Virus record (IMG/VR): IMGVR_UViG_3300021960_000024
Source of the DNA: an uncultured virus (IMG/VR IMGVR_UViG_3300021960_000024)
Taxonomy: Duplodnaviria; Heunggongvirae; Uroviricota; Caudoviricetes
Strand: one strand, 5' to 3'
Length of the DNA: 64,000 bases
Positions 2,734-36,000 of this stretch are shown here, in pieces; position 1 is the first letter of the stretch, and each line of letters starts with the position of its first letter. A program made the position numbers and the translations under genes. The notes under the pieces are model-generated. The model had not been told where the DNA came from. It searched no databases and saw nothing but the letters and a program-made list of their open reading frames with translations.

Positions 2734-2876
2734 TGAATGAACAGGAATATCGTGACATATATGCAGAGTATTGCATGGAGAGTGGTGAGCGTATGACTGA
2801 CAGAGGCTTTCGAGAGTTCAAGGCATGGCGTAAGAGGGTAGAAGAGTTATTTGAGAAACGTGAAGATTCTTCTTGA
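2733..2876 (+). CDS. Small hypothetical early protein (47 aa, MNEQEYRDIY...)
   Basis: Read by hand; TAATG stop/start overlap with the upstream ORF; below the ORF-track length cut-off. Confidence 0.55.
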   Translation: MNEQEYRDIYAEYCMESGERMTDRGFREFKAWRKRVEELFEKREDSS

Positions 2877-2901
2877 CATTACCCGCTGCGTATGGTATAG
2901 T
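2873..2901 (+). promoter_or_regulatory. sigma70-type early promoter (extended -10)
   Basis: TTGACA (2873-2878), 17 bp spacer, TG-G-TATAGT (2896-2901). Confidence 0.85.
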
Positions 2902-2934
2902 TAGATATACTGAGAAAACAACGGAGACTTCGAT

Positions 2935-3126
2935 ATGACTACTCTTGCTGCTAAAGGATATACCACTGATGGCGTTCCTGTCTTCCTGTGGGCGTATGGG
3001 AACTACAAGTATGAGGTAGAGGTGAAGAAGTTGAACTTCACTGAGAGTGAAGTGTTTGATGCCTCTTTTAATGAGGCTGTGAATAAGTTTGAGGACCGTG
3101 CCATTAATGGTGTAGAGTTCTTCTGA
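2935..3126 (+). CDS. Small hypothetical early protein
   Basis: 63 aa ORF with GGAGA RBS directly after a strong promoter. Confidence 0.7.
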   Translation: MTTLAAKGYTTDGVPVFLWAYGNYKYEVEVKKLNFTESEVFDASFNEAVNKFEDRAINGVEFF

Positions 3127-3204
3127 TTGTCTTAGAGAGTGTCCCGAATGGTCTTACGTATACTGCTGAAGTGCTAGGTGGACTGACACTCTCTCTTTTA
3201 TTGA

Positions 3205-3370
3205 GGAGAGTCTGGACGAGTGAATGATATATATCCTGTTGGACTGACTACTGAAGAGCGCTAGAGCTCTGAAGCTGACAGTGGGATGGATGAAGCCAGG
3301 ATCGTTTGTGAGACAATATCAAGGTAGCTCACACTACCTAACAGGGGGTTCGATTCCCCCTCTCTCTACC
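3205..3370 (+). ncRNA. Candidate tRNA-like structured RNA (~165 nt)
   Basis: Canonical T-arm GGGGG-TTCGATT-CCCCC (3344-3360), followed by TCTCTCT-A-CC that pairs with GGAGAG (3205-3210). Several nested internal helices. Region has no ORF. Confidence 0.55.
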
Positions 3371-3460
3371 TCTCATATGACTAAGGGGGGGTTAGAACTG
3401 GAACGCTATACCTAATCTATAAATGCAATAACTTCCCTAAGTAATATTTTCCTGTGAATA

Positions 3461-3510
3461 TTTCCAAGACACCCCCCCTAAAACTGAGAGCATTTTATTT
3501 GCACTTCCCT
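3461..3510 (+). repeat. Dispersed C-tract repeat, copy 1
   Basis: AGACACCCCCCCTAAAACTGAGAGCATTTTATTTGCACTTCCCT; similar to 4191-4240 and 4555-4588. Confidence 0.8.
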
Positions 3511-3521
3511 GCATTATTTTA

Positions 3522-3550
3522 TTGACAAACCTTTCTGAGTATGGTACTGT
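3522..3550 (+). promoter_or_regulatory. sigma70-type early promoter (extended -10)
   Basis: TTGACA (3522-3527), 17 bp spacer, TG-G-TACTGT (3545-3550). Confidence 0.75.
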
Positions 3551-3579
3551 TAGACATAATGAGAAACACGGAGAAAGAC

Positions 3580-3930
3580 ATGACCAAGTTTGTGAACAAG
3601 AACTTCTACTACAACGGCGAATACCTGTTCTATCAGGTGCCTGGCGAAGGGTTTGAGCGTTTCGTTGCTCGGTTCAAATACGGTGGAATGGTTGCATTCA
3701 AGAAGTTCCTTCGTGAGAACTTCACTGTGAATGAGTACTTCGATCTCTTGGAGAACAAGGGTATGGCTCCTCTGAAGGTTCTTGAGACAAAGGGTTATGT
3801 AACTCCCAATATTGCAAAAATCCTCAAGATGCGTGGTTATCCCATGACCCTTGAAGGTATGAACAAAATGATTAAAGATGATATTGCACGGCGAAAAGGC
3901 CTATATGGAACTACTGGTGTAAAGCAATAG
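3580..3930 (+). CDS. Hypothetical early protein
   Basis: Start moved to the ATG at 3580 (GGAGA RBS, downstream of the promoter). FVARFKYGG..AFKKFLRENFTVNEYF..L...APL..LE pattern is phage-like. Confidence 0.75.
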   Translation: MTKFVNKNFYYNGEYLFYQVPGEGFERFVARFKYGGMVAFKKFLRENFTVNEYFDLLENKGMAPLKVLETKGYVTPNIAKILKMRGYPMTLEGMNKMIKDDIARRKGLYGTTGVKQ

Positions 3931-4596: not shown

Positions 4597-4705
4597 CTTA
4601 ACCGGACATATTATGGAAGCGATACTAATAGTACTACTAATCGGGTTCTGTGTTTGTTTCTTTGTGAGACATCCACTTATTTCTTTAAAATATATCTTTT
4701 ATACC

Positions 4706-4734
4706 TTGACATTTCTTGCAATAGGGTATATAGT
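4706..4734 (+). promoter_or_regulatory. sigma70-type promoter for uvsX
   Basis: TTGACA (4706-4711), 17 bp spacer, TATAGT (4729-4734). Confidence 0.8.
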
Positions 4735-4773
4735 GGTAGCAATACTATTCTTTTATTTACTAGGAGCGAATAT

Positions 4774-5820
4774 ATGAGTGATTTTCTAAGAGACGTTATC
4801 AAGAATGCTGGTAATGAGTACGCAGCTATCGTGGATGACGGTGTTGAAGCAGGAGATGTTGACAGTTTCATTGATACTGGCTCATATATCTTCAATGGAC
4901 TACTGAGTGGTTCCATATATGGGGGACTTCCCTCGAATAAGATTACTGCGATTGCAGGAGAGAGTGCAACTGGTAAGACGTATTTCCTTATGGGTATCGT
5001 AAAGAACTTTCTGGATGCAGACCCAGACGCTGGTGTCATATACTTCGAAAGTGAAAGTGCGATTACCAAGAACATGGTGGTGGACCGTGGAATTGATCCG
5101 AAACGCATGGTGATCTTTCCTGTCACAACCGTACAGGAGTTTCGTACACAGGCAATTCGAGTGATTGACGACTACATGGCGCAGCCTGAGAGTGACCGTA
5201 AGCCGTTGTTCCTCTGTCTGGACTCTCTGGGTATGTTATCTACCACGAAGGAAGTCGAAGACACCACGGATGGTAAAGAAACCAGAGACATGACCAGAGC
5301 TCAAGTGCTAAAAGCGGCGTTTCGAGTTCTGACGCTGAAACTCGGGCGAGCGAAAGTCCCGATGGTCGTAACTAATCATACTTATGAGAGTATGGGCCTG
5401 TTCTCTACCAAGGAGATGGGTGGTGGTTCTGGTCTGAAGTATGCGGCGAGTAGTATCATCTACCTCAGCAAGAAGAAAGAGAAAGATGGTACAGAGGTTA
5501 TCGGTAATATCATTCATTGTAAGAACCACAAGTCCCGACTCACCAAAGAGAACAAGATGGTGGATGTGCGACTGACTTATGACAGGGGATTGGATCGATA
5601 CTACGGTCTGCTGGAACTGGCAGAGAAGTATGAGATATTTAAGAAGGTATCAACACGGTATGAACTGCCTGACGGGTCAAAGCAGTTTGGTAAAGCGATA
5701 CTCAATGACCCAGAAACCTACTTCACTGAGGATATCATGCACAAGCTGAACCTCGCAGCCGAAACGGAGTTTAAATATGGAGCAGGAAATGACGAAACCG
5801 TTCAAGATAGTGACGACTGA
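4774..5820 (+). CDS. uvsX: UvsX RecA-like recombinase
   Basis: Walker [41 protein letters not shown]. True start is probably the ATG at 4774 (AGGAG RBS) rather than 4654. Confidence 0.96.
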
Positions 5821-7020: not shown

Positions 7021-8559
7021 ATGCAAGATTTCATGGGTAAAGACGGTTTCAGTTGGTTCGTTGGTGTGGTTGAAGACAGGAACGATCCTGCTCAATTGGG
7101 TAGGGTTCGTGTTCGTGTGCTTGGACGGCACAGTGATGACTTGACTCAGGTTAAGACTATTGACTTACCGTGGGCGCATGTGATGCACCCTGTAACTGAT
7201 CCTTCTATGCAGGGGTTAGGTCACACACCGTCATTTCTAACACAGGGTTCGTGGGTTGTTGGGTTCTTTAGGGACACTGAAGCACAGCAACCTGTTATCA
7301 TGGGTACATTGCCGGGTATTCCAGAAGAAAGTGCTAGTACATCTGAAGGATTTAATGATCCAAGAGGAAAAGGTTCATCCCAAAAAGGATTTCAGTTTGA
7401 ACCAAAATATGGTCCATATCCCGGCACTATAACTCACTCTGGTCATGGTATCGGTGAATCAGATACTAGTCGTTTAGCTAGGGGTAGAGCATCAGAATCA
7501 CATCAGTCTCTTATTTCTCGTAGACTGAGCCGGTTGCGTGGTGATCCTGTCGAGTCTAATGACGAAGATGATAGCAATACGGGTATTCCTACTGCAACCA
7601 AACCAAACATAAAAACTGTCAGCGATGAATTAAAAGAAGATGAAACACGGGGATTCTGGGAAGAGCCACATCCCAAGGGTATTATTGAAGATGCAAACCC
7701 ATATATTTCTGGTGTCTATCCCTACAACCATGTATTTGAATCTGAGTCTGGTCACATTACGGAAGTTGATGATAGCCCCGGCGCAGAAAGAATGTTTCGC
7801 CAGCACATGGCAGGAACATTTGAAGAGATTCACCCTGACGGTTCTGTTGTCACCAAGATTGTCGGTGATAACTACGAGATTGTGATTGGTAGTGAGAACA
7901 TTGTCATCAAGGGTTCTCAGAACATCACAGTTGAGGGTTCAGTAAGAGAGCTCATTAAGGGTGACTACATACAGGAGATTGAAGGAGACTTCGTTCAGAA
8001 GATTCATAAGAACCATCGTGTCAAGGTAGGTGCTGCAAACGATGCACATCCAAAAGGTCCGGGCGGTAATCGTGAAGAAGAGATTATCGGCAATCATTCT
8101 TTCAATATCAACGATGATATCAAAGGTAGAGTCGGTGGTGATTCGGTTGTCACCTTTGAGAAATCTAAAATTCAAATTGTTGGTGGTGGATATGATTTGG
8201 ATGTTACGGGTAAGGAGATGGGTTCAAACGAGGGTGGTGATGGTGTTTTCATATCAACTAATTCTAACTACACCGTGCTTGCAAAGACCAATATATCGCA
8301 GACAACTATATCAGGTATCATGTCTATTAAATCTGGTGACACATTGAACATAAAATCAGCTGCGGATATGACAATCGTGATGGAGAACGCTGTTTCTCCA
8401 TCGAACGGACCGTTGGACGCATTAATGAAAATAGAATCTAAGAATACTTTGAGTCAAATCGTCGGTACGTCATGGACAAGCACCACAGGAACAACATGGT
8501 CGCATACATCTACAGGTATTGCAACAATTGTTGGTTCTGAAATTCAGATGAACCCATAG
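7021..8559 (+). CDS. gp5: Baseplate hub / central spike protein gp5 (no lysozyme domain)
   Basis: OB-fold start WFVGVVEDRNDP..LGRVRVRVLGRH, WVVGFFRD..QQPVIMG, YPYNHVFESESGH, C-terminal beta-helix repeats. Confidence 0.93.
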   Translation: MQDFMGKDGFSWFVGVVEDRNDPAQLGRVRVRVLGRHSDDLTQVKTIDLPWAHVMHPVTDPSMQGLGHTPSFLTQGSWVVGFFRDTEAQQPVIMGTLPGIPEESASTSEGFNDPRGKGSSQKGFQFEPKYGPYPGTITHSGHGIGESDTSRLARGRASESHQSLISRRLSRLRGDPVESNDEDDSNTGIPTATKPNIKTVSDELKEDETRGFWEEPHPKGIIEDANPYISGVYPYNHVFESESGHITEVDDSPGAERMFRQHMAGTFEEIHPDGSVVTKIVGDNYEIVIGSENIVIKGSQNITVEGSVRELIKGDYIQEIEGDFVQKIHKNHRVKVGAANDAHPKGPGGNREEEIIGNHSFNINDDIKGRVGGDSVVTFEKSKIQIVGGGYDLDVTGKEMGSNEGGDGVFISTNSNYTVLAKTNISQTTISGIMSIKSGDTLNIKSAADMTIVMENAVSPSNGPLDALMKIESKNTLSQIVGTSWTSTTGTTWSHTSTGIATIVGSEIQMNP

Positions 8560-10436: not shown

Positions 10437-10880
10437 ATGCTCATGAGCGCTAAAGACGCATATACTGACGGTACATATCAGGGACAAGAACGAGCTGCTC
10501 AACTGTATTCCGATATAGATTTGTTTTTTGGACCTAAGACGGGAACAAATGATATCAACAAGGTAACAGATTTTACGGCCGTCAAACGATCTGTCAGAAA
10601 TCTTGTTCTAACTAACTTCTATGAGAAACCCTTTCACCCAGAGATTGGTTCTGGTGTAAGAGATATTCTATTTGAACCTATGACGCCAATCACTGCATAT
10701 GTTCTAACTATGAAGATCGAAGAGGTGATTGAGAACTTTGAACCAAGAGCTAGACTCGTTGGAGTTCGAGCTCAACCTAATCTTGACAACAATGCATATA
10801 ATGTTACTATTGAGTTTTATGTTGTTAACGCCCCAACAGAACTTGTGAATATGGAAGTTCTATTAGAGAGATTACGATAA
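10437..10880 (+). CDS. gp25: Baseplate wedge subunit gp25
   Basis: YSDIDL, AVKRSVRNLVLTN.YEKPFHPEIGS, IENFEPRA, ending LERLR. Confidence 0.95.
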   Translation: MLMSAKDAYTDGTYQGQERAAQLYSDIDLFFGPKTGTNDINKVTDFTAVKRSVRNLVLTNFYEKPFHPEIGSGVRDILFEPMTPITAYVLTMKIEEVIENFEPRARLVGVRAQPNLDNNAYNVTIEFYVVNAPTELVNMEVLLERLR

Positions 10881-12781
10881 TGGCAGCGACTAGAAAAAGA
10901 CTCAGTGTAACAGAATTTGACTTTGATGAGGTTAAGGATAACCTAAAACTTTTCATGCGAAATCAGACAGAGTTCAAGGACTATGACTTCGAAGGCTCTG
11001 GTCTATCTGCCCTTCTGGATGTTCTTGCATATAATACACACTATCTTGGTTTCAATGCGAACATGCTTGCAAATGAAATGTTCCTTGACTCTTCTCAACT
11101 GAGGTCAAGTGTAGTTTCTCATGCGAAGACCTTGGGATACACCACTCGTTCTGCAACAGCATCTAACGCAGTTGTTGACATTTTTCTTAACACAACGAAT
11201 GTAAGTGCAACTATGCCAGCAGGAACAGTGTTCAGTGCTAGTGTTGATGATGTATCTTATCAGTTTGTAACCATATCTGATGTAACTTCATCTAACAGTG
11301 GTTCAAACATTGTCTTTGATGACGTTAGAATTTATGAGGGAAGTTATGTTTCAAGTCGATACGTTGCTGATACTCAGAATGTTGAACAGAGGTTTCTAAT
11401 CAATGATGATCGTGCAGATACAACAACCCTTTCGGTTATAGTTCAAAACTCTGCAACGGATACCATACAGACAACCTTTACTCAAGCAACAGATATTTCT
11501 GGACTAACCTCTACATCGAATGTATATTTTATTCAAGAGGTTGAGGATGGTCAGTATGAAATTTATTTTGGTGACGGTATTCTGGGTTCTGCGATAGAAG
11601 ATGGTAATATTATTATCATGCAATATGTTGTGACTAATAAGGGCGCAGCTAACGGTGCAAGTACGTTTACTTCATCTTCTGCAATCGATACGGTCAATAG
11701 TGTTAATGTTGTTACTGTTTCAATTTCTGATGGTGGATCAGAACCAGAAAGTATTGAGTCCATCAAGTACAACGCACCTCTGGATTATGCATCGCAGGGA
11801 AGATGTGTTACAACAGAAGATTATAAGACATATGTTAAACAGTTGTTCGCAAACACTCAAGCGGTTTCTGTTTGGGGTGGCGAGGATGGTTCATTTAATC
11901 CGGTTACTGGTGTGTCTGATGTTGCAGAGTATGGTAAAATTTTCATTAGTGTTAAGTCAACCACAGGACTAAATCTAAATGAAATTCAAAAGGCACAGTT
12001 AGTAACAGATTTGTCTCCGTACACTGTAGCGTCTATTACTCCCGTAGTCGTAGATGCAGAAACTCTAAACATTATCCTTAACGTCAATTTTAAATTCGAT
12101 AGTAACAAAACAACAAATTCTAGAGAATCGTTAGAGACACTTGTACAATCTACTATCACAAATTACAATACTGATTACTTGAAAGTATTCAACTCTGTTT
12201 TTAGACATTCTCAGTTTACTTCTTTGGTTGATGCTAGTGATACTTCAATATTGAGTAATATCACTACGGTAACTCTGGGTAGTTTTTACACACCAAGTAC
12301 ATCAGGTTCCTTTTCTTTCACAGTTCATTTTGGAAATCAACTGTATAATCCCCACTCTGGTCATAATTCAACAGCCGGTGGTATTATTGCATCAACTGGT
12401 TTCTATGTACAGGATAATACAAACGAGATGTTCTTTGATGATGATGGCGCAGGCAACCTTCGCATTTATTATTTGGTTACCGGAGCAAGAACCTATTATG
12501 ATTCTTTCGCTGGAACTGTAGATTACACAACTGGTTTAGTTTCAGTTAATCCAGTTTATATAACATCTGTATCTAGTGTTGATGGCAATGTCTCAAGAAG
12601 AATAAGGTTAACTGCAATACCAGCGTCCAGTGATATTGTAGGTAAGAGAAATCAGATTGTTGAAATTGATCTTGTAAATACGTCAGTCTCAGGGGGACAG
12701 GATACAATTGCAGTTAATACTGCGGGGGGTTCAACGAGTTACGTCACATCAACTAATTACGCAACGCCGTCGAGTTATTAA
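10880..12781 (+). CDS. gp6: Baseplate wedge subunit gp6
   Basis: EFDFDEVK, FKDYDFEGSGLS.LLDVLAYNTHY, SVVSHAKTLGY, FGDG, ESIESIKYNAP, QGRCVT.EDY. Confidence 0.96.
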   Translation: MAATRKRLSVTEFDFDEVKDNLKLFMRNQTEFKDYDFEGSGLSALLDVLAYNTHYLGFNANMLANEMFLDSSQLRSSVVSHAKTLGYTTRSATASNAVVDIFLNTTNVSATMPAGTVFSASVDDVSYQFVTISDVTSSNSGSNIVFDDVRIYEGSYVSSRYVADTQNVEQRFLINDDRADTTTLSVIVQNSATDTIQTTFTQATDISGLTSTSNVYFIQEVEDGQYEIYFGDGILGSAIEDGNIIIMQYVVTNKGAANGASTFTSSSAIDTVNSVNVVTVSISDGGSEPESIESIKYNAPLDYASQGRCVTTEDYKTYVKQLFANTQAVSVWGGEDGSFNPVTGVSDVAEYGKIFISVKSTTGLNLNEIQKAQLVTDLSPYTVASITPVVVDAETLNIILNVNFKFDSNKTTNSRESLETLVQSTITNYNTDYLKVFNSVFRHSQFTSLVDASDTSILSNITTVTLGSFYTPSTSGSFSFTVHFGNQLYNPHSGHNSTAGGIIASTGFYVQDNTNEMFFDDDGAGNLRIYYLVTGARTYYDSFAGTVDYTTGLVSVNPVYITSVSSVDGNVSRRIRLTAIPASSDIVGKRNQIVEIDLVNTSVSGGQDTIAVNTAGGSTSYVTSTNYATPSSY

Positions 12782-27031: not shown

Positions 27032-30000
27032 ATGTCATATCAATCACTTGATCTTGGTTCAGTTGCAAATGATGGCACGGGCGATACACTTCGTGAATCA
27101 GGTGATAAAACTAATGACAACTTTCTTGAAATTTATAACTTACTTGGTGACGGCACAGACCTGTCAAGTGGTATCAGTGCAACTGCAACAGTAGTAACTT
27201 TAACTGCACCAACAATTTCTGGTGTTGTCGGTGGAACAATTACATCGGCCACAATTACAACTCTAACAGGAACTACTTTTAACGCTGGAACTCTTGCATT
27301 AGTTGCTGGTTCTATTACAGACAGTTCTGGTGCGATTAGTTTTGGTAATGAGAACCTAACAACAACAGGATCAGTTACAGCTGCGTCATTAGACATATCT
27401 GGTAATGTTGATATAGATGGTACACTTGAAACTGATGCACTAACGATTGATGGTGTTTCACTCTCTGAAACTATTGCTGACACAGTTGGAGCAATGGTTA
27501 GTTCCAATACAGAAACAAATATCGCAGTAACATATGATGATGCAGATAACACATTAGACTTTGTTATTGGTACACTCAACCAAAGTACATCAGGAAATGC
27601 AGGCACTGCTACTGCACTTGAAACTGCTAGAACTATTCATGGTGTGTCATTTGATGGTACTGCTAATATTGATCTTTCTGAAGTCGTACAAGATACAGTT
27701 GGTGCGATGTTCTCTAGTAATACAGAGACAAACATTACTGCAACATATCAGGATGCAGATGGAACAATAGACCTTGTTATTGGTACACTCAATCAAGATA
27801 CAACTGGTAATGCTGCAACTGCAACTGCATTAGAAACTGCAAGAACTATTGGTGGAACTTCGTTTGATGGTAGTGCAAATATTGCTGTTGCCCTTTCTGC
27901 AACTGCTACTGCACTGGAAACTGCTAGAACTATTCACGGAGTTTCTTTTGATGGTACTGCCAATATTGATCTAACAGAAGTTGTACAAGACACAGTGGGA
28001 GCCATGTTCTCTAGTAACACGGAGACAGGTATCACAGTAACCTATCAGGATGCAGATGGCACTATTGATCTTGTAGTGGGAACTCTCAATCAGGACACAA
28101 CGGGTAACGCAGCAACTGCAACCGCATTGGAAACATCACGGACTATTGGTGGTGTATCCTTTGATGGTACAGGCAATATCAACCTGCCGGGTGTAAATAC
28201 AAGTGGTAACCAAGATACAAGTGGTACGGCTGCAAAAGTTACCGTCACAGATAGCAATGCAAACACAAATTTCCCAGTGGTTTTCCACGATGAGTCGAAT
28301 GCATTGTTGGATGACACAGGTGCATTACGTTACAATCCAAGCACAGGCGAACTACTTGTTCCAAATCTTACTGTAGCAGGAACGACTACACAGGTCAACA
28401 CCGTTACAATGAACGCACAAAATGCTGTCGTCTTTGAGGGTGCAACGGCAAATGACTTTGAGACAACTCTAACCATCACAGACCCAACTGCTGATAGAAC
28501 AATTACCATGCCAGATGCAACTGGTACTATGGCACTAACATCTAGTGATATTACAGGTAACGCAGCAACTGCAACCGCACTTGCAACGGCTAGAACCATT
28601 CATGGTGTATCGTTTGATGGCACTGGTAACATAGACCTCACAGAAGTTGTACAAGATACTGTTGGAGCTATGTTTAGTTCTAACACAGAAACAGGTATTA
28701 CTGTAACTTATCAAGATGCAGATGGCACCATAGACCTCGTTGTTGGTACACTCAATCAGGACACTACAGGTAATGCTGCAACTGCTACCGCATTGGAAAC
28801 TGCTAGAACCATTCACGGTGTAAGTTTTGATGGCACTGGCAATATTGACCTCACTGAAGTTGTACAAGATACCGTTGGAGCCATGTTTAGTTCTAATACA
28901 GAGACAGGTATTGCCGTATCGTATGAAGATGGTGATGGAACCATTGACTTAGTAGTTGGAACTCTAAATCAAGACACAACGGGTAATGCTGCAACTGCTA
29001 CTGCACTAGAAACAGCAAGAACTATTGGTGGAACTTCGTTTGATGGTACTGCAAATATTGCCGTTGCACTTTCTGCAACTGCTACTGCACTGGAAACTGC
29101 TAGAACTATTCATGGTGTATCATTCGATGGCACTGCTAACATTGACCTTACTGAAGTTGTACAAGATACTGTTGGAGCTATGTTTAGTTCTAACACAGAA
29201 ACAAATATTACTGCAACATATCAGGATGCAGATGGAACCATAGACCTTGTTATTGGTACACTCAATCAGAACACAACTGGAAATGCTGCAACTGCTACTG
29301 CTTTAGAAACTGCAAGAACAATTCATGGAGTTTCCTTTGATGGCACTGCCAATATTGACCTCACCGAAGTAGTACAAGATACCATTGGAGCTATGTTCAG
29401 TTCTAACACTGAAACAGGGGTGACTGTAACTTATCAGGATGCTGACGGTACGATTGATGTTGTAGTTGGAACTTTGAATCAGGATACCACAGGTAATGCT
29501 GCAACTGCTACCGCATTAGAAACTGCAAGAACTATTGGTGGGACTTCATTTGATGGTACTGCAAATATTGCTGTTGCTCTTGCTGACACTGCCACTGCAC
29601 TTGCAACTGCTAGGACTATTCATGGAGTGTCCTTTGATGGTACTGCCAATATTGATCTCACTGAAGTCGTACAAGATACTGTTGGAGCTATGTTTAGTTC
29701 TAACACAGAAACAAATATTACTGCAACATATCAGGATGCAGATGGAACCATAGACCTTGTTATCGGTACACTTAATCAAGATACCACAGGAAGTGCTGCA
29801 ACTCTAACTACTGCAAGAACAATTGGTGGAGTGTCTTTTGATGGTAGTGCTAACATTAACCTTCCCGGCGTAAATACTGCTGGTAATCAGAATACAAGTG
29901 GAACAGCCGCAGTCGCAACGGTTGCAACAACGGTTACTATTACGGATAATGAATCTACAGACGAAAACAACGCTATTGTCTTTACTGCTGGTGGTGATGT

Positions 30001-33000
30001 TGATGGTGGTAATCTTGGATTAGAATCTGATGGAACACTTACATATAATCCTAGCACTGGTAAGATTACTGCAACGGGATTTGTGGGTGCATTGACAGGT
30101 GATGTTACTGGTGATGTTACAGGTAATGCTGACACTGCAACCGCACTTGCAACGGCGAGAACTATTCATGGTGTGTCCTTTGACGGCACTGGTAACATTG
30201 ACCTCACCGAAGTAGTACAAGACACTGTTGGAGCTATGTTTGGTTCCAACACAGAGACAGGTATTACAGTAACTTATCAAGATGCTGACGGCACTATTGA
30301 TCTTGTGGTGGGAACACTTAACCAAGATACAACTGGAACCGCAGCAAAAGTTACGGTCACCGATAGCACTGCGAATACAAACTTCCCCGTGACCTTCCAC
30401 GATGAGTCGAATTCATTGTTGGATGATACAGGTGCATTGCGTTACAACCCAAGTACAGGAACTCTACTTGTTCCAAATCTTGTTGTAGCAGGAACGACTA
30501 CTCAAGTTGATACTGTGACTATGAATGCAGAGAACGCAGTCATATTTGAAGGTGCAACTGCTGACGATTTCGAAACAACTCTAACCATCACAGACCCAAC
30601 TGCTGACCGTACACAGAGATTGCTCAACCAAAGTGGTTATATCCCCCTTCTTGCGGCGGTTACAACCACTGCAATTACATCCACACCAGAAGAGCTTAAT
30701 ATTCTGGACGGTGCGACTGTTGTAGTTGGTGAGATTAATGCACTGGACTTGGGTTCGACGGCTGTTGGTAATGCTATTGCTAGTAAGGCGGTCATACTGG
30801 ACTCCAACAAAGATTATACAGGAATACGAAACTTTACCGTAAGTGGCGAACTTGACGCAGCAACAGGTGATTTCTCTGGTAACGTAGATGTTGATGGTAC
30901 ACTAGAAGCAGATGCAATCACTGTCAACGGTACTGCACTGGATGAGTTCATTTCCGATACAGTTGGTGCGATGGTCAGTAGTAATACTGAAACAGGTATT
31001 GCAGTGACTTATCAGGATGCTGACAATACGATAGACTTTGCCCTCAATGCCGCACAAACTACTATAACAAGTTTGTTGGCCACTGATATCAAAATTGGTG
31101 AGGATGACCAGACCAAGATTGACTTTGAGACTGCTGACACAATTAACTTTTATGCAGGAAATGAAAAACAATTAATACTTACAGATGGTGCTTTAACTCC
31201 CGGCGCTGATAATATTTTAGACCTTGGTAGTAGTAGTGTAGAATTTAAAGATGCCTACTTTGATGGTACAGTTACATCAGATGCATTTGCTGGTCCTCTA
31301 ACGGGTAATGTTACAGGTAATGCTGATACCGCAACTGCACTCGCAACTGCTAGGACAATTGGCGGTGTATCATTTGATGGTAGTGCTAATATTAATTTGC
31401 CGGGTGTCAATACTGCTGGTAATCAGAATACAAGTGGGACAGCAGCAGTTGCAACAACAGTAACCATAACGGACAATGAATCTACAGACGAAGACAACGC
31501 TATTGTGTTTACTGCTGGTGGAGATGTTGACGGTGGTAATCTTGGATTAGAATCAGACGGAACCTTAACATACAACCCAAGCACTGGTAAGATTACTGCT
31601 ACAGGATTTGTAGGAACACTAACTGGTAATGTAACAGGCAATACATCTGGTACTGCTGCTACGGTCACATCTGCTGCTCAAACAAATATCACTTCAGTAG
31701 GAACATTAACCGCACTTCAAGTAGATAATATTAATATCAACGGTAATGCAATAACAAGTACTGCTGGTACGGACTTAACAATCACTCCATTAGCAGGACA
31801 ACAGATTGTTCTTGATGGAACAATAGTAGTTGATGCTGGTGTGGTTACAGGTGCAACAAGCATTACATCAACAGCATTTGTTGGTGATATAACTGGTGAT
31901 GTTACAGGTAATGCAGATACGGCAACCACACTTGCAACTGCTAGAACAATTGGTGGTACATCATTTGATGGTTCTGCAAATATTGATGTTGCACTTGCTA
32001 CACTTGCTACCACTGTTACTATTACTGATAATGAATCTACGAACGAGGACAACGCCCTTATCTTCGCTGCTGGTGGCGATGTTGACGGAGGTAACTTAGG
32101 TCTAGAATCAGATGGTACACTAACATACAATCCTAGTACTGGTAAAGTAACTGCCACGGGATTTGTAGGAACACTTACTGGTGATGTTACAGGTGATGTT
32201 ACAGGTAATGCAGATACGGCAACTGTACTTGCAACGGCTAGAACTATCGGTGGTGTATCATTTAATGGTAGTGCTAACATTAACCTACCTGGCGTTAACA
32301 CTGCTGGTAACCAGAATACCTCTGGTAGTGCTGCAACTCTAACTACTGCTAGAACAATTGGTGGAACCTCATTTGATGGTAGTGCAAATATTGATGTTGC
32401 ACTAGCAACACTTGCAACAACAGTCACTATTACTGATAATGAATCTACGGACGAGGACAACGCCCTTATCTTTACTGCTGGTGGCAATGTTGACGGAGGT
32501 AACTTAGGTCTAGAATCAGATGGTACACTAACATACAACCCAAGTACAGGTAAAGTAACTGCAACTGGATTTGTAGGAACATTAACTGGTGATGTTACAG
32601 GTGATGTTACAGGTGATGTAACAGGTAATGCTGATACAGCAACTGTACTTGCGACAGCCAGAACTATTGGTGGTGTATCCTTTAACGGTAGTGCTAACAT
32701 TGACCTTCCCGGCGTAAATAGTGCTGGTAACCAGAATACCTCTGGTTCTGCTGCAACTCTAACTACCGCAAGAACTATCGGTGGAACCTCGTTTGATGGT
32801 AGTGCAAATATTGATGTTGCACTAGCAACACTTGCTACTACTGTTACAGTCTCCGATAGCACTGCGAATACAAACTTCCCAGTGGTCTTCAACGATGAAT
32901 CTAATGCACTTTTGGATGATACTGGTGCATTGCGTTACAACCCAAGTACAGGAACTCTACTTGTTCCAAATCTTGTTGTAGCAGGAACGACTACTCAGGT

Positions 33001-36000
33001 TGACACTGTTACTATGGAGGCAGCGAATGCTATAGTATTTGAGGGTGCAACTGCTGACGCATATGAAACAACCCTTACGATCACAGACCCAACTGCTGAT
33101 CGTACTATTACTTTGCCTGATGTAACAGGTACAGTTGCATTAACTTCTAGTAACATTACAGGAAGTGCTGCAACTCTAACTACTGCTAGAACAATTGGTG
33201 GGGTTTCGTTTGATGGTTCTGCTAACATTAACCTTCCCGGTGTAAATATTGCTGGTAATCAGAACACAACAGGAAGTGCTGCAACTCTAACGACAGCTAG
33301 AACAATTGGTGGGGTTTCGTTTGATGGTTCTGCTAACATTAACCTTCCCGGTGTAAATAGTGCTGGTAATCAGAACACAAGTGGTACTGCTGCTACTGTT
33401 ACTGGTGCAGCTCAAACAAATATCACTTCATTGGGTACACTAACCGCCCTTACAGTTGATAACATTATCATTAATGGAACAAACATTGGTCACACTTCTG
33501 ACACAGATTCTATAGCGATTGCCTCAAATGGTGTGGTTACGTTCTCACAGGCACCAGTATTCCCCGATGGGTCCATTGCGATTGCTGATCTAGATATCGA
33601 CGGCGCAACAGACATAGGGGCTGCACTTGCTGATGCAGACTTGTTCATCGTTGATGATGGTGCTGGTGGTACAAATAGAAAATCAACACTTGCAAGACTA
33701 AAAACTTATATGTCTGCTGGGTCAACTGTTTCTGCCGATGATATCAATGCTGGGGATGCCGCAGTTACCATAACAACATCCAGTGGTAACATTACAATTG
33801 ATGCTGCAGCCGACGATAGTGACATTATCCTCAAGGGAACAGATGGTACTGTAGATACAACATATCTAACGATTGATGGTAGTGCTGCTGGTGAAGCAAC
33901 ATTTAACGCAGGGATTGTGATTGCTGATGCTGGAACTATCGGTAGTGCCAGTGACAAAGATGCCATTGCGATTGCTTCTGATGGTGTTGTTACCATGAAT
34001 CAGATACCAGTTTTCAGTGCCGGTATTAATGTTTCTGGTGGTAGTATTGCAGGAACACTTTCTACTGCTGCTCAAGGTAATATTACATCACTTGGTACAC
34101 TCACCGCTCTAACTGTTGACAATGTTGTTATCAATGGCGCAACAATAGGCCACGGAGATGACACTGATTTGATGACGGTTGCTGATGGTATATTGACCGT
34201 TGCTGGTGAAGTTTCTATGACCACTCTAGATATTGGTGGAACCAATGTTACATCAACTGCAGCTGAACTTAATGTTCTAGATGGTATTACTGCCGTGGTT
34301 GGAGAACTTAACGCACTGGACTTGGGTTCGACTGCCGTTGGTAATGCCATTGCAAGTAAAGCGGTCATACTGGACTCCAATAAAGATTATACAGGAATAC
34401 GAAACTTTACAATTGATGGCGACTTAGATGTTGGTGATGACCTCAAGCTAACTTCAGATGCTGCTCTAATATCATTTGGCGCAAATTCAGAAATCACAAT
34501 GACTCACGTTCATGATACGGGTCTTACTCTAACACATACTGCTACGGGTGACAATACGCCTATGGTGCTTCAACTGAAGTCCGAAGAGGATATTGTTGAA
34601 GCAAACGAGGTTATTGCATCCATAGAGTTTGCTGCCGGTGACTCAGATGGTACTGATGGTGCTACCGTTGCTGCTGGTATTCATGCAATCGCAGAAGGTA
34701 CATTCTCTGCTAGTGCGAATGCAACGAAACTAGTATTTACAACGGGTGTGTCTGAGACTGCTGCATCCTCTGCAACTGCCAAGATGACATTAAGTTCTGC
34801 TGGACTTCTAACCATTGCAGATGACCTTGTTATTAAAGATGGTGGTACAATTGGTGTTGCAAGCGATGCAGATGCAATTACAATCGCAAGTAATGGTCAA
34901 GTAACTCTTACACAAACACTAATAGGAACTGCGTTAGATATCTCTGGTGACGTAGATGTTGATGGTACACTAGAAGCAGATGCAATCACTGTCAATGGCA
35001 CTGCACTTGCAGAATTCATTAGTGATACTGCTGGTGCGATGGTTAGTTCTAACACAGAAACGGGTATTGCCGTAACTTATCAGGACGCTGACAATACCAT
35101 AGACTTTGCAATTAATGCTGCACAAACCACTATCACAAGTTTGCTGGCCACCGATATTAAGATTGGTGAAGATGACCAGACCAAGATTGACTTTGAGACT
35201 GCTGACGAAATACACTTCTATGCAGCAAATGCTCATCAGGTTAAAATCGTAGATGGGGCTATTGTTCCCGCAACAGACGATGATGTTGATTTAGGTACGA
35301 GTTCAGCAGAATTTAAGAATGCTTTCTTTGACGGTACAGTTACATCAGATGCATTTGCTGGTCCTCTGACGGGTAATGTTACAGGTAATGCTGATACCGC
35401 TAGCAAGCTTGCAACTGCAAGAACCATAGGTGGTGTATCATTTGATGGTAGTGCTAATATCAACCTTCCCGGTGTAAATAGTGCTGGTAATCAAAATACA
35501 AGTGGTAGTGCTGCAACTCTAACTACCGCAAGAACTATTGGTGGAACCTCGTTTGATGGTTCTGCAAATATTGATGTTGCACTAGCTACACTTGCTACTA
35601 CTGTTACTATCACGGATAACGAATCTACAGATGAAAACAATGCGATCATCTTTGCTGCTGGTGGAGATATTGATGGTGGTAATCTTGGACTAGAATCAGA
35701 TGGAACATTAACATACAATCCTAGTACAGGTAAAGTAACTGCTACAGGATTTGTAGGAACACTAACTGGTAATGTAACAGGCAATACATCTGGTACAGCC
35801 GCAACTGTTACAGGTGCAGCCCAAACAAATATCACTTCAGTAGGTACATTAACCGCACTACAAGTAGATAATATTAACATTAATGGTAATGCTATTACGA
35901 GTACTGCTGGTGTAGACCTAACGATCACGCCATTAACAGGACAACAGATTGTTCTTGATGGTACGATTGTCATTGACGCTGGTGTGGTTACAGGTGCAAC

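What the first reader, a model, noticed from the sequence alone, without database searches (positions are those of the whole stretch)
3133..3370. tRNA-mimic ncRNA: acceptor stem and T-arm enclosing a ~130-nt structured insert, with an alternative 5' pairing
Seen: a perfect T-arm (GGGGG-TTCGATT-CCCCC) followed by TCTCTCT-A-CC. This pairs with GGAGAG (3205) as an acceptor stem. In place of the D and anticodon arms are nested helices: TGATAT/ATATCA, ATCCTG/CAGGAT, ACTG/CAGT, AGAGC/GCTCT, AGGTAG/CTACCT. Upstream, AGAGAGTGTC (3133) forms its own hairpin with GACACTCTCT (3185) but could also pair with the same 3' strand, so the two folds are mutually exclusive. Known: T4 encodes tRNA-like stable RNAs (species C/D), and tmRNA uses an acceptor plus T-arm mimic. 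Inference: an RNase P/CCA-processed phage RNA of unknown function, for example a decoy for tRNA-targeting defence nucleases.
Basis: partly seen in the sequence, partly recalled or inferred. Interest (0 to 1): 0.7.

Follow-up and report, generated by a model that had tools for sequence, protein, structure and literature searches.

The report
Phage tRNA-shaped RNA with kissing loops
This ocean phage carries a gene for a small RNA that keeps the top half of a tRNA but replaces the decoding part with two hairpins whose loops pair with each other, a design it shares with the still unexplained "species 1" RNA of phage T4.

Summary
Window 3205-3370 (+) is one member of a conserved RNA family of uncultured marine T4-like phages. 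I found 31 distinct sequences. A covariance model built from short relatives scores the window copy 69.5 bits, E 4e-19; true tRNAs score 27 bits or less.

Layout:
- 6-bp acceptor stem, with a purine 5' strand.
- A conserved unpaired strand, UCUGG..GAGUGAA, with no D stem.
- Hairpin 1 and hairpin 2.
- A 4-nt linker, a canonical T arm, and a discriminator.

All helices covary. This pairing covaries through nine loop variants.

The roughly 76-nt "structured insert" is a lineage-specific expansion; relatives have 0 to about 90 nt there.

It is not a tRNA, a tmRNA or an attP remnant. The proposed alternative pairing with the upstream hairpin is not conserved; that hairpin is an independent conserved element.

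T4 rnaC (species 1 RNA) has the same layout, including complementary 6-nt loops.

The most likely reading is a non-decoding tRNA mimic cut out by tRNA-maturation enzymes. Its partner is unknown.

The parts
2873..2901 (+). sigma-70-type early promoter-like site (TTGACA, 17 nt, TATAGT) that would drive the 63-aa ORF, the hairpin and the tRNA-like RNA
   Evidence: 11 of 12 matches, TG extension. In relatives such as L005 the same promoter lies directly before the hairpin.
2935..3126 (+). 63-aa ORF of unknown function between the promoter and the hairpin; absent in several relatives
   Evidence: no PHROG family, no tblastn match. RNA-library contigs of relatives join 2909/2912 to 3131/3134, skipping it (table 5).
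3134..3199 (+). conserved structured hairpin H (stem 3134-3143 with 3185-3194, inner helices, then a U run): terminator-like, and independent of the tRNA-like RNA
   Evidence: 17 sequences, 17 pairs, 8 with compensatory change; present with and without the RNA behind it. No Rfam match.
3205..3210 (+). acceptor stem, 5' strand (GGAGAG); position 3211 (U) faces U 3361 as a pyrimidine-pyrimidine mismatch
   Evidence: (helix 1: 4 of 6 pairs with changes on both sides, 96.3% paired)
3211..3224 (+). conserved unpaired strand UCUGGACGAGUGAA (D-loop-like, with the GG; no D stem)
   Evidence: GAGTGAATG invariant and TCTGG nearly invariant in 18 sequences
3225..3230 (+). hairpin 1, 5' strand (TGATAT), pairs with 3316-3321
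   Evidence: helix 2 (4 of 8 pairs with changes on both sides)
3231..3306 (+). lineage-specific expansion inside the loop of hairpin 1, closed by ATCCTG 3233-3238 with CAGGAT 3297-3302
   Evidence: 0 to about 90 nt in relatives. The inner helices are not conserved. Fold z -0.82.
3307..3312 (+). UGUGAG, the loop-1 segment that pairs with the loop of hairpin 2
   Evidence: helix 4: 5 of 6 pairs with changes on both sides, 97.2% paired; 29 of 31 members have a complement of 5 nt or more.
3316..3321 (+). hairpin 1, 3' strand (ATATCA)
3322..3339 (+). hairpin 2: AGGTAG, loop CTCACA (3328-3333), CTACCT; it sits where the variable arm of a class II tRNA sits
   Evidence: helix 5 (4 of 6 pairs with changes on both sides, 98.1% paired)
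3340..3343 (+). 4-nt linker AACA (AACG in most relatives)
3344..3360 (+). T arm GGGGG-UUCGAUU-CCCCC
   Evidence: helix 6, 100% paired, 3 of 5 pairs with changes on both sides
3362..3370 (+). acceptor 3' strand CTCTCT (3362-3367), discriminator A 3368, CC 3369-3370; the final A of CCA is not encoded
3387..3520 (+). separate conserved downstream element: G7 run, TTAGAACTGG, late-promoter-like TATAAAT (3418-3424), then a C7 run (3472-3478), TAAAACTGAGAG, TTGCACTTCCC; not part of the RNA
   Evidence: It is present in L003 and Melnitz without the tRNA-like RNA. The G run is a C run in L111 and others, so it cannot be an acceptor strand.

Best explanation
Window 3205-3368 encodes a small, non-decoding, tRNA-shaped RNA. 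It belongs to a conserved family of marine T4-like phages and is built like T4 rnaC (species 1 RNA).

Shown:
- A 6-bp acceptor helix plus one mismatch, stacked on a canonical 5-bp T arm. This gives the 12-layer 'top half' of a tRNA.
- A conserved unpaired GG-containing strand where the D arm would be.
- Two hairpins in place of the anticodon and variable arms. Their loops are complementary and covary.
- There is no anticodon loop.

Inferred:
- The RNA is transcribed from the early promoter at 2873, by read-through of hairpin H.
- It is released by the host's tRNA-maturation enzymes: RNase P at 3204/3205, 3' trimming behind A3368, and completion of CCA.
- The loop-loop pairing locks its body into a fixed shape.
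- It works as a tRNA mimic that engages a tRNA-binding factor through acceptor end, T arm and elbow, without ever decoding. Possible partners are a processing or modifying enzyme, a synthetase, or a tRNA-targeting defence protein.
- It probably descends from a class II (serine-type) phage tRNA.
For: Family and structure:
- R1 scores the window copy 69.5 bits and other members 42-104 bits. True tRNAs and T4 RNAs score 27 bits or less.
- All six helices covary.
- The loop complement is present in 29 of 31 distinct members, through nine loop variants. With swapped loops the mean is 5.7 of 31 and the maximum 11.
- The unpaired motifs GAGUGAAUG and AAC are invariant. A bare cutting signal would not need them.

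It behaves like a tRNA-gene cargo:
- Tandem copies in L165, and a second tRNA-like type directly before it in L176.
- In relatives the slot between hairpin H and the downstream element is empty or holds a different tRNA-like type. Melnitz has a small ORF and tRNA-Arg between two copies of the downstream motif.
- In L219, L229, L246 and L249 it sits at the very place in a conserved ORF where relatives carry ordinary tRNA genes.

T4 parallel:
- T4 rnaC is annotated as a small stable RNA.
- It has an acceptor stem formed by its two ends (one compensatory pair), a T arm, and two hairpins with invariant complementary loops UUGACG and CGUCAA.
- 5 of 7 pairs in the stem of its first hairpin change on both sides.

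Serine-type descent:
- T4 tRNA-Ser is R1's best T4 match, 24.4 bits.
- BLAST of the 3' third finds only tRNA-Ser 3' ends among cultured phages.

Expression:
- Contigs from RNA libraries of three studies cover 2926-3431, including H and the RNA.
Against: - No ends, processing, stability or binding partner were observed. The RNA-library data are contigs, so they cannot show 5' or 3' ends and may include DNA.
- Hairpin H ends in a U run and might terminate most transcripts before the RNA.
- The base at -1 is A in the window, while it is U in 11 of the 18 aligned relatives.
- The discriminator is not uniform: A in most, G in the L215/L228/L230/L234 group.
- Geometry is a problem. In the shortest forms both loops are only 6 nt, with 0-1 nt between the hairpins. 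A coaxial kissing complex within one molecule therefore looks impossible unless the top of hairpin 1 opens (my inference).
- In L217/L222/L240 the complement overlaps the 3' strand of hairpin 1 (my reading).
- Homology with T4 rnaC is not shown by sequence; R1 gives 19.4 bits, in the range of true tRNAs.
- None of the five cultured phages tested carries the family.
Confidence: 0.55

Rival explanations
1. Pure processing signal (a 't-element'). The tRNA shape only recruits RNase P and the 3' tRNA nuclease to cut the early polycistronic transcript. This would separate the ORF and hairpin-H leader from downstream messages. The excised RNA itself would have no job.
For: - The RNA lies inside transcription units. 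In L239, L226, L241 and L146 it ends 10-25 nt before the ribosome-binding site and start of the next gene.
- It is interchangeable with real tRNAs at the same sites.
- Earlier notes of this scan read other anticodon-less phage tRNA shapes this way; those are unchecked leads.
Against: - RNase P needs only the acceptor/T-arm minihelix (established knowledge). Here two further hairpins, a covarying loop-loop helix and invariant single-stranded motifs are also conserved.
- Tandem copies (L165) add nothing to punctuation.
- Inside the ORF of L219, L229 and L246, cutting would destroy the message.
- T4 rnaC is annotated as a stable RNA.
Confidence: 0.2
2. It is a chargeable, non-decoding tRNA. A synthetase that ignores the anticodon, most plausibly SerRS given the serine-type ancestry and the variable-arm-like hairpin 2, aminoacylates it. 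The charged RNA would then feed a non-ribosomal reaction or titrate the enzyme.
For: - A canonical 12-layer acceptor/T helix with a discriminator.
- Its closest tRNA relatives are Ser tRNAs.
- Hairpin 2 sits where the class II variable arm sits.
Against: - The discriminator varies between A and G, and pair 3:70 varies (AU 10, GC 6, GU 2 of 18), so no single acceptor identity is conserved.
- The loop of the supposed variable arm is tied up in pairing.
Confidence: 0.1
3. tmRNA-like or permuted-tmRNA element: a tRNA-like domain for ribosome rescue, as in the two-piece ssrA of the related phage Melnitz.
For: - Weak sub-threshold hits of tmRNA_permuted (15.9 bits, gathering score 47) and cyano_tmRNA on the T arm.
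- Like the tRNA-like domain of tmRNA, it has a D-loop-like strand without a D stem.
- Melnitz, the nearest isolate, encodes a two-piece tmRNA (PMC9004378, passages read).
Against: - G3:U70 is not conserved.
- No tag reading frame is conserved; the insert varies from 0 to about 90 nt.
- The downstream G run that could serve as a permuted 5' strand is a C run in L111 and others, and does not covary.
- ARAGORN finds no tmRNA.
- Melnitz's ssrA lies elsewhere in its genome and looks different.
Confidence: 0.03
4. Decaying pseudo-tRNA, or an attP-type tRNA fragment without function.
For: - ARAGORN calls a poor tRNA-His.
- The 3' third resembles the tRNA-Ser 3' ends that serve as attP sites in temperate phages.
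Against: - Compensatory changes in every helix across 31 variants.
- Both acceptor strands are present.
- The phage is a T4-like lytic type.
- No copy was found in 185,579 representative bacterial and archaeal genomes at the pattern's stringency. The 5 pattern matches were ordinary tRNAs or unrelated DNA.
Confidence: 0.02

Closest known systems
Phage T4 rnaC (species 1 RNA, 139 nt, annotated 'small, stable RNA'; NC_000866 70908-71046)
   Same: - Encoded by a T4-type phage.
- Its 5' and 3' ends form an acceptor-like stem next to a canonical T arm.
- Directly 5' of the T arm lies a 6-bp hairpin with a 6-nt loop (CGUCAA) that is complementary to the 6-nt loop (UUGACG) of an upstream hairpin.
- There is no anticodon loop.
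- It sits among tRNA genes.
- It has no Rfam family either.
   Different: - Sequence likeness is not detectable; R1 gives 19.4 bits, like true tRNAs.
- In T4 the two hairpins are about 40 nt apart. Here they are 0-1 nt apart.
- T4's acceptor stem has two U-U mismatches.
- T4 lacks the UCUGG..GAGUGAAUG strand as a conserved motif.
- In the five coliphage-type sequences the loops are invariant, so the pairing is not proven by covariation there.
Class II tRNA-Ser (phage or bacterial)
   Same: - Purine-rich GGAGAG-type 5' acceptor strand.
- T arm and 3' strand close to tRNA-Ser 3' ends.
- A hairpin where the long variable arm sits.
- T4 tRNA-Ser is the best R1 match in T4, and its D region shares GGCAGAGUG with members such as L176.
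   Different: - No D stem and no 7-nt anticodon loop.
- The loop of the 'variable arm' is paired.
- Rfam's tRNA model does not match, even at E up to 10.
- ARAGORN does not call the relatives.
tRNA-like domain of tmRNA (including the two-piece form in phage Melnitz)
   Same: Acceptor stem plus T arm, with a D-loop-like strand that has no D stem; the anticodon arm is replaced by other structure.
   Different: - No conserved G3:U70.
- No tag frame and no pseudoknot series.
- Not permuted.
- Rfam tmRNA models stay far below threshold.
t-elements (tRNA-like processing signals of plant mitochondria; PMC1920247, search listing and abstract only)
   Same: A tRNA-shaped, non-decoding element embedded in longer transcripts, probably cut by tRNA-processing enzymes.
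   Different: This RNA has a large conserved extra domain with a covarying tertiary pairing. It occurs in tandem arrays and forms a wide phage family, which points to a job of the RNA itself.
Complementary hairpin loops that pair between hairpins or between molecules (enterovirus 3'UTR X/Y kissing, phi29 pRNA ring; recalled, not checked in a paper here)
   Same: Two hairpin loops of one RNA are complementary over 4-6 nt, and the complementarity is kept in evolution.
   Different: Those RNAs have no tRNA-like part. Whether the pairing here is within one molecule or between two is unknown.

Membership tests
Canonical tRNA (Rfam RF00005) | Cloverleaf with a D stem and a 7-nt anticodon loop; matches the tRNA model | tested here: not met
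   - No Rfam match at gathering score in the window.
- tRNA is not among the matches at E up to 10 for 3050-3520.
- ARAGORN's tRNA-His call is not repeated in L005, L010 or L022.
- Hairpin 2 has a 6-nt loop that is paired.
Canonical tRNA (Rfam RF00005) | Acceptor stem plus T arm of 12 stacked layers, with a UUCGAUU-type T loop | tested here: met
   (helices 1 and 6)
tmRNA (one-piece or permuted) | G3:U70 alanine identity pair | tested here: not met
   Pair 3:70 is AU 10, GC 6, GU 2 of 18; in the window it is A-U.
tmRNA (one-piece or permuted) | Tag reading frame and pseudoknots; match to Rfam tmRNA models; for the permuted form, a 5' acceptor strand downstream of CCA | tested here: not met
   - The region between the hairpin strands varies from 0 to about 90 nt, with no conserved frame.
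- Best tmRNA-type score is 15.9 bits against a gathering score of 47.
- The downstream G run is a C run in relatives.
T4 rnaC / species 1 RNA type | Ends form an acceptor-like stem beside a T arm; no anticodon loop | tested here: met
   Window. T4 group: (acceptor pair 22:158 is GC 4, AU 1; T arm 100% paired).
T4 rnaC / species 1 RNA type | A hairpin next to the T arm whose 6-nt loop is complementary to the loop of an upstream hairpin | tested here: met
   Window family: helix 4. T4 group: 6 of 6 pairs in all 5 sequences, loops invariant, stem of the first hairpin covaries.
T4 rnaC / species 1 RNA type | Detectable sequence or profile homology | tested here: inconclusive
   R1 scores rnaC 19.4 bits, no better than T4 tRNAs (16-24 bits).
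T4 rnaC / species 1 RNA type | Accumulates as a stable, processed small RNA | not testable with these tools
   Only contigs of RNA libraries could be laid; they show presence, not ends.
t-element (tRNA-like processing signal) | Cut by RNase P and/or the 3' tRNA nuclease within a longer transcript, the product being dispensable | not testable with these tools
   The context is compatible, but the conserved extra structure argues for more.
C4/CI antisense RNAs and YrlA-type Y RNAs (other tRNA-like phage or bacterial RNAs in Rfam; names recalled) | Match to the Rfam models | tested here: not met
   No such family among the matches. No copies of the loop 6-mers recur consistently in the flanks as cis targets.

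The most novel reading that the evidence does not exclude
The complementary loops do not, or not only, close one molecule.

In the shortest forms the loops are 6 nt, hairpin 1 has up to 9 bp, and 0-1 nt separates the hairpins. The pairing can then form only between two molecules or after hairpin 1 opens. Between molecules, loop 1 of A would pair with loop 2 of B and the reverse, giving a closed dimer with two tRNA 'top halves'.

The RNA would then be a self-assembling or switching tRNA mimic. Together with T4 rnaC it would define an old, unrecognised RNA class of T4-type phages, from enteric to oceanic, with one shared function in host takeover or counter-defence.

A linked oddity: at one conserved early ORF, these RNAs and ordinary tRNA genes lie inside the translated frame.
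Probability: 0.2. Interest if true: 0.88.

Novelty: new variant of a known kind. Interest (0 to 1): 0.72.

Why it matters
- T4's species 1 RNA has been an orphan since the 1970s (recalled). The same unusual design, a tRNA top half plus two hairpins with complementary loops, now appears in a large family from abundant uncultured ocean phages. That argues for a conserved function and gives covariation-backed structure constraints to test in T4, which is easy to manipulate.
- The family has no Rfam model. It was missing from the 50,697 GenBank phage records by BLAST and from the five cultured phage genomes tested with the model.
- It is a clean case of a phage turning a tRNA gene into a non-decoding mimic. 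This bears on how phages deal with tRNA-processing enzymes and with tRNA-directed defence.

Tried and rejected
- **Permuted tmRNA reading**, with the G7 run at 3387-3393 as 5' acceptor strand. Rejected: the run is a C run in L111, L095 and others, and does not follow the acceptor changes.
- **Alternative pairing of hairpin H with the 3' acceptor strand.** Rejected as a conserved feature. All these strands are purine- or pyrimidine-rich, so partial complementarity is unavoidable.
- **Cis targets for the loops.** The loop 6-mers do not recur consistently in 40-445 nt of flank in 18 loci.
- **Host gene or attB idea.** The pattern scan of genome contigs gave 5 matches, all ordinary tRNAs or unrelated DNA. 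R1 gave 34.6 bits at most there.
- **Cultured carriers.** Melnitz, HTVC008M, S-H38, ACG-2014d and T4 have no R1 match above 27.1 bits. BLAST of two short members against 'phages' found only T-arm and acceptor pieces.
- **Close DNA or protein relatives of the flanks among cultured phages.** None useful.
- **Single-sequence folding.** Not significant.
- **RNA libraries.** No contig of the four RNA runs covers 3448-3600, and depth differs between parts. Neither is usable as evidence.
- **Literature.**
  - Searches found no description of this family.
  - PMC10690425 reports tRNA-like candidates from IMG/VR (passages read). The motif GAGUGAAUG was not in its 6 searchable supplementary files, but 3 files could not be searched, so the family may be in that catalogue unnamed.
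- **Coding reading of the window copy.** The frame that stays open through some short members meets a stop in the window's insert (my reading).
Full report
**What the window is**

PHROG matches identify a T4-type myovirus.
- A DnaB/gp41-type helicase lies at 10-744, a UvsX recombinase at 4654-5820, the gp5 hub at 7021-8559 and the gp6 wedge at 10880-12781.
- From 12.8 kb on the window holds baseplate, neck, sheath, tube, terminase, portal and capsid genes.
- The nearest cultured phages by UvsX are Methylophilales phage Melnitz (80.9% identity) and Pelagibacter phage HTVC008M (70.7%).
- An IMG/VR contig carries the same stretch letter for letter.

The finding lies in a 415-nt gene-free stretch between a 63-aa ORF (2935-3126) and the next gene. 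It is downstream of a strong sigma-70-type promoter at 2873-2901.

**Checking the observation**

Detectors for known RNAs give nothing solid.
- Rfam has no match at gathering score in the whole window.
- At E up to 10 there are only sub-threshold hits on the T arm.
- ARAGORN calls an odd 91-nt tRNA-His at 3280-3370. It calls nothing at the homologous sites of L005, L010 and L022. In 60 related loci it found only two ordinary tRNA-Gly genes.

Folding energy of the single sequence is no better than that of shuffles. The case therefore rests on comparison.

**Relatives**

- A blastn of 3125-3540 against 80 UvsX-linked viral loci found homologues of differing length.
- I then ran pattern scans on the T-arm side, on the upstream hairpin and on the conserved 5' motif, in viral contigs and in metagenome contigs.
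- A regular expression over all loci gave 36 distinct sequences.
- Five of these (L221, L224, L227, L242, L248) have no match to the family model and I dropped them. That leaves 31 distinct members, 93 to 182 nt as extracted.

**Structure**

Alignment and test set:
- I aligned 18 of the 19 distinct short members (93-97 nt).
- I left out the L112 type because its hairpins differ in length.
- I left out the 12 longer members because their inserts cannot be placed by MAFFT.

I then counted pairs for the structure that I read off the sequences.
- 96.0% of 576 cells are standard pairs, against 77.8% in 500 shuffles (none reaches it) and 36-52% with slid partners.
- 21 of 32 pairs have changes on both sides.

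| Helix | Pairs with changes on both sides |
|---|---|
| Acceptor | 4 of 6 |
| Hairpin 1 | 4 of 8, plus the single pair 34:41 above it |
| Hairpin 2 | 4 of 6 |
| T arm | 3 of 5 |
| Loop-loop helix | 5 of 6 (97.2% paired) |

Unpaired but invariant are GAGUGAAUG and the A and C of the AAC in the linker. UCUGG is nearly invariant.

The loop-loop pairing holds across all 31 distinct members.
- The loop of hairpin 2 has a perfect complement of at least 5 nt upstream in 29 members, and of 6 nt in 26.
- It does so through nine different loop sequences.
- When loops are swapped among members, the mean is 5.7 of 31 and the maximum 11.
- The exceptions are L223, where one base differs, and L202, where my script found only 4 nt and I read 5.

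**The window copy**

I built model R1 from the 18 short sequences without the pseudoknot.
- It finds 3204-3370 at 69.5 bits, E 4e-19, and places 85 nt as an insertion in the loop of hairpin 1.
- Two of the 18 training sequences, L182 and L236, share the window's hairpin 2, so the test is not fully independent.
- Other members score 42-104 bits.
- True tRNAs score far lower. T4's tRNAs reach 24.4 bits at most and a tRNA-Gly in the loci 25.5. The best match in five cultured phage genomes is 27.1 bits.

In window coordinates the parts are:

| Part | Coordinates |
|---|---|
| Acceptor stem | 3205-3210 with 3362-3367 |
| Mismatch | U3211 opposite U3361 |
| D-loop-like strand | 3211-3224 |
| Hairpin 1 | 3225-3230 with 3316-3321 |
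| Expansion | 3231-3306 |
| Loop segment UGUGAG | 3307-3312 |
| Hairpin 2 | 3322-3327 with 3334-3339 |
| Loop CUCACA | 3328-3333 |
| Linker AACA | 3340-3343 |
| T arm | 3344-3360 |
| Discriminator | A3368 |
| CC | 3369-3370 |

The expansion is absent in L182 and is about 47 to 90 nt in other relatives. Its closing helix ATCCTG/CAGGAT is kept, with one compensatory change in L141.

**What it is not**

- Not a tRNA. There is no D stem and no 7-nt anticodon loop, and the loop sequences vary freely as long as they stay complementary.
- Not a tmRNA. Pair 3:70 is AU 10, GC 6, GU 2 of 18. No tag frame is conserved. The downstream G run cannot be a permuted 5' strand because it is a C run in several phages. 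Melnitz does have a two-piece tmRNA, but elsewhere in its genome and of a different form (PMC9004378, passages read).
- Not an attP remnant or a host gene. Both acceptor strands covary. A pattern scan of one genome for each of 185,579 species gave only 5 matches, all ordinary tRNAs or unrelated DNA.

**The upstream hairpin and the 'alternative pairing'**

The hairpin at 3134-3194 with its U run is a conserved element in its own right.
- Across 17 distinct sequences it has 17 predicted pairs, 8 of them with compensatory change, and a conserved bulge C(C/A)CGAAUG.
- In most relatives it follows an early promoter directly.
- By my reading, 25 of the 32 pattern loci hold the hairpin.
  - 12 are followed by the kissing-type RNA.
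  - 2 are followed by a second, different tRNA-like type (L098, L123).
  - 11 are followed by neither; one of these is cut short by the contig end.
- Its stem is nearly constant while the acceptor stems behind it differ.
- Family members in other contexts have no such hairpin in front.

**Context and behaviour as a gene**

The RNA behaves like a tRNA-gene cargo.
- L165 has two copies in tandem. L176 has the hairpin, then the second tRNA-like type, then the kissing type.
- Melnitz has a small ORF and a normal tRNA-Arg between two copies of the conserved downstream motif.
- In L239, L226, L241 and L146 the RNA ends 10-25 nt before the next gene's ribosome-binding site.
- The base before the acceptor stem is U in 11, C in 5 and A in 2 of the 18 aligned sequences. 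It is A in the window.

RNA-library evidence is weak.
- Contigs from metatranscriptome libraries of three studies cover 2926-3431.
- One contig spans 2926-3352, that is, the ORF, the hairpin and most of the RNA.
- This is compatible with read-through transcription. But contigs show no ends, and such libraries can contain DNA.

**An unexpected context**

In L219, L229, L246 and L249 the RNA lies inside an open frame of about 115 codons. The conserved C-terminal part of that frame has no start codon of its own.
- The predicted protein has 690 relatives at E up to 0.001.
- An alignment of 16 shows conserved N- and C-terminal parts and a hypervariable middle.
- In 80 viral loci of this ORF, ARAGORN finds one or two ordinary tRNA genes (Ala, Pro, Arg, Asp, Cys or Thr) wholly inside the open frame in 41.
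- Other members have no tRNA and a protein-like middle.
- A sigma-70-type promoter sits directly before the start codon in all 12 upstream stretches printed.
- The protein has no Pfam family and only a weak PHROG match of unknown function.

I did not resolve what this means. It shows that the kissing-type RNA can stand in for a tRNA gene at the same site. It also shows that at that site a mere cutting signal would destroy the message.

**Closest known: T4 rnaC**

The T4 record annotates rnaC as a 'small, stable RNA; species 1 RNA' next to the tRNA cluster. R1 scores its 3' 93 nt only 19.4 bits, so sequence homology is not shown. T4 tRNA-Ser is the best T4 match at 24.4 bits.

The layout, however, is the same. 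I aligned T4 with four diverged relatives: IME523, KM16, KaAlpha and NM4.3.
- The two ends pair; one pair switches from A-U to G-C.
- There is a canonical T arm.
- Next to it is a 6-bp hairpin with the loop CGUCAA.
- Upstream is a hairpin with the 6-nt loop UUGACG. 5 of 7 pairs in its stem change on both sides.
- Both loops are invariant and fully complementary in all five sequences.
- With five sequences and invariant loops, the pairing in T4 is supported by conservation, not by covariation.
- Rfam has no family for rnaC either.

**How it most likely works**

Shown:
- A conserved, covarying tRNA-shaped RNA gene without an anticodon.
- A loop-loop pairing.
- Interchangeability with tRNA genes.
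- An architectural twin in T4.

Inferred:
- Early transcription through the hairpin.
- Release by RNase P and 3' trimming, and completion of CCA. The window encodes ACC followed by U.
- A body locked by the loop-loop helix.
- Action as a tRNA mimic through acceptor end, T arm and elbow.

Its purine-rich acceptor strand, the hairpin in the variable-arm position, and its likeness to tRNA-Ser suggest descent from a class II serine tRNA.

I put 0.55 on 'stand-alone tRNA mimic'. The partner is open: a decoy for a tRNA-directed defence protein, a competitor for a processing enzyme, or a chargeable RNA. I put 0.2 on a pure processing signal.

**An unresolved point of geometry**

In the shortest members both loops are exactly 6 nt, hairpin 1 has up to 9 bp, and the two hairpins are 0-1 nt apart. 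A coaxial kissing complex would put the two stem bases some 20 bp apart, so it cannot close within one such molecule unless the top of hairpin 1 opens.
- Its top three pairs are the weakest: 14, 11 and 15 of 18 sequences paired.
- In L217, L222 and L240 the complement even overlaps the 3' strand of hairpin 1.

Pairing between two molecules, giving a symmetric dimer, or a two-state switch would fit. This is my inference and is untested.

**Novelty**

- Phage tRNA-like stable RNAs are known from T4. This family is a new variant with a defined, covariation-backed architecture.
- The shared complementary loops appear not to be described in the open literature I could search.
- Old T4 papers are not in the library.
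- Three supplementary files of the IMG/VR catalogue paper could not be searched.

Noticed in passing
L250-L329, L219, L229, L246, L249 (not in the window): A family of early ORFs of about 112-150 aa, with 690 relatives. It has conserved N and C parts and a hypervariable middle. In 41 of 80 viral loci the middle is one or two ordinary tRNA genes (Ala, Pro, Arg, Asp, Cys, Thr) lying wholly inside the open reading frame. In some loci it is the kissing-type RNA. The C part has no start codon of its own.
   Followed up: partly
window 3134-3199: Conserved structured hairpin with a U run. It has 17 pairs, 8 with compensatory change, in 17 sequences, and a conserved bulge C(C/A)CGAAUG. It usually lies directly behind an early promoter, with or without a tRNA-like RNA after it. 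It has no Rfam match and may be a regulated early terminator or a small RNA of its own.
   Followed up: partly
window 3387-3520: Conserved two-part element. The first part is a G7 run (a C run in other phages), TTAGAACTGG and CCTAATCTATAAATGCAATAA, with a T4-late-promoter-like TATAAAT at 3418-3424. The second is C7, TAAAACTGAGAG and TTGCACTTCCC. Both parts recur in Melnitz on either side of an ORF and tRNA-Arg. A homopolymer that flips between G and C at the same place is odd.
   Followed up: partly
L022 2571-2662; L123; L176 (just upstream of its kissing-type RNA): A second, different 92-nt tRNA-like type: acceptor GGAAGG, one long hairpin CCCAT/ATGGG with a compensatory variant CTCAT/ATGAG, then GUGAACUAAG before the T arm. 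It can sit in tandem before the kissing type. R1 scores it only 20-22 bits.
   Followed up: partly
L335 2909-3047 (T4 rnaC) and L344-L347: T4 species 1 RNA and its relatives keep two hairpins with invariant complementary 6-nt loops (UUGACG and CGUCAA), while the stem of the first hairpin covaries. I found no open paper that mentions this.
   Followed up: partly
window 27032-38551: A single ORF of 3839 aa inside the structural module, between the baseplate genes and a block of ORFs with no PHROG match. I did not analyse it.
   Followed up: no
window 3541 versus 3580: The mechanical ORF start at 3541 lies inside the promoter-like site TTGACA 3522-3527 / TACTGT 3545-3550. The ATG at 3580, behind GGAGAAAG, is the more likely start of the next gene.
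   Followed up: no
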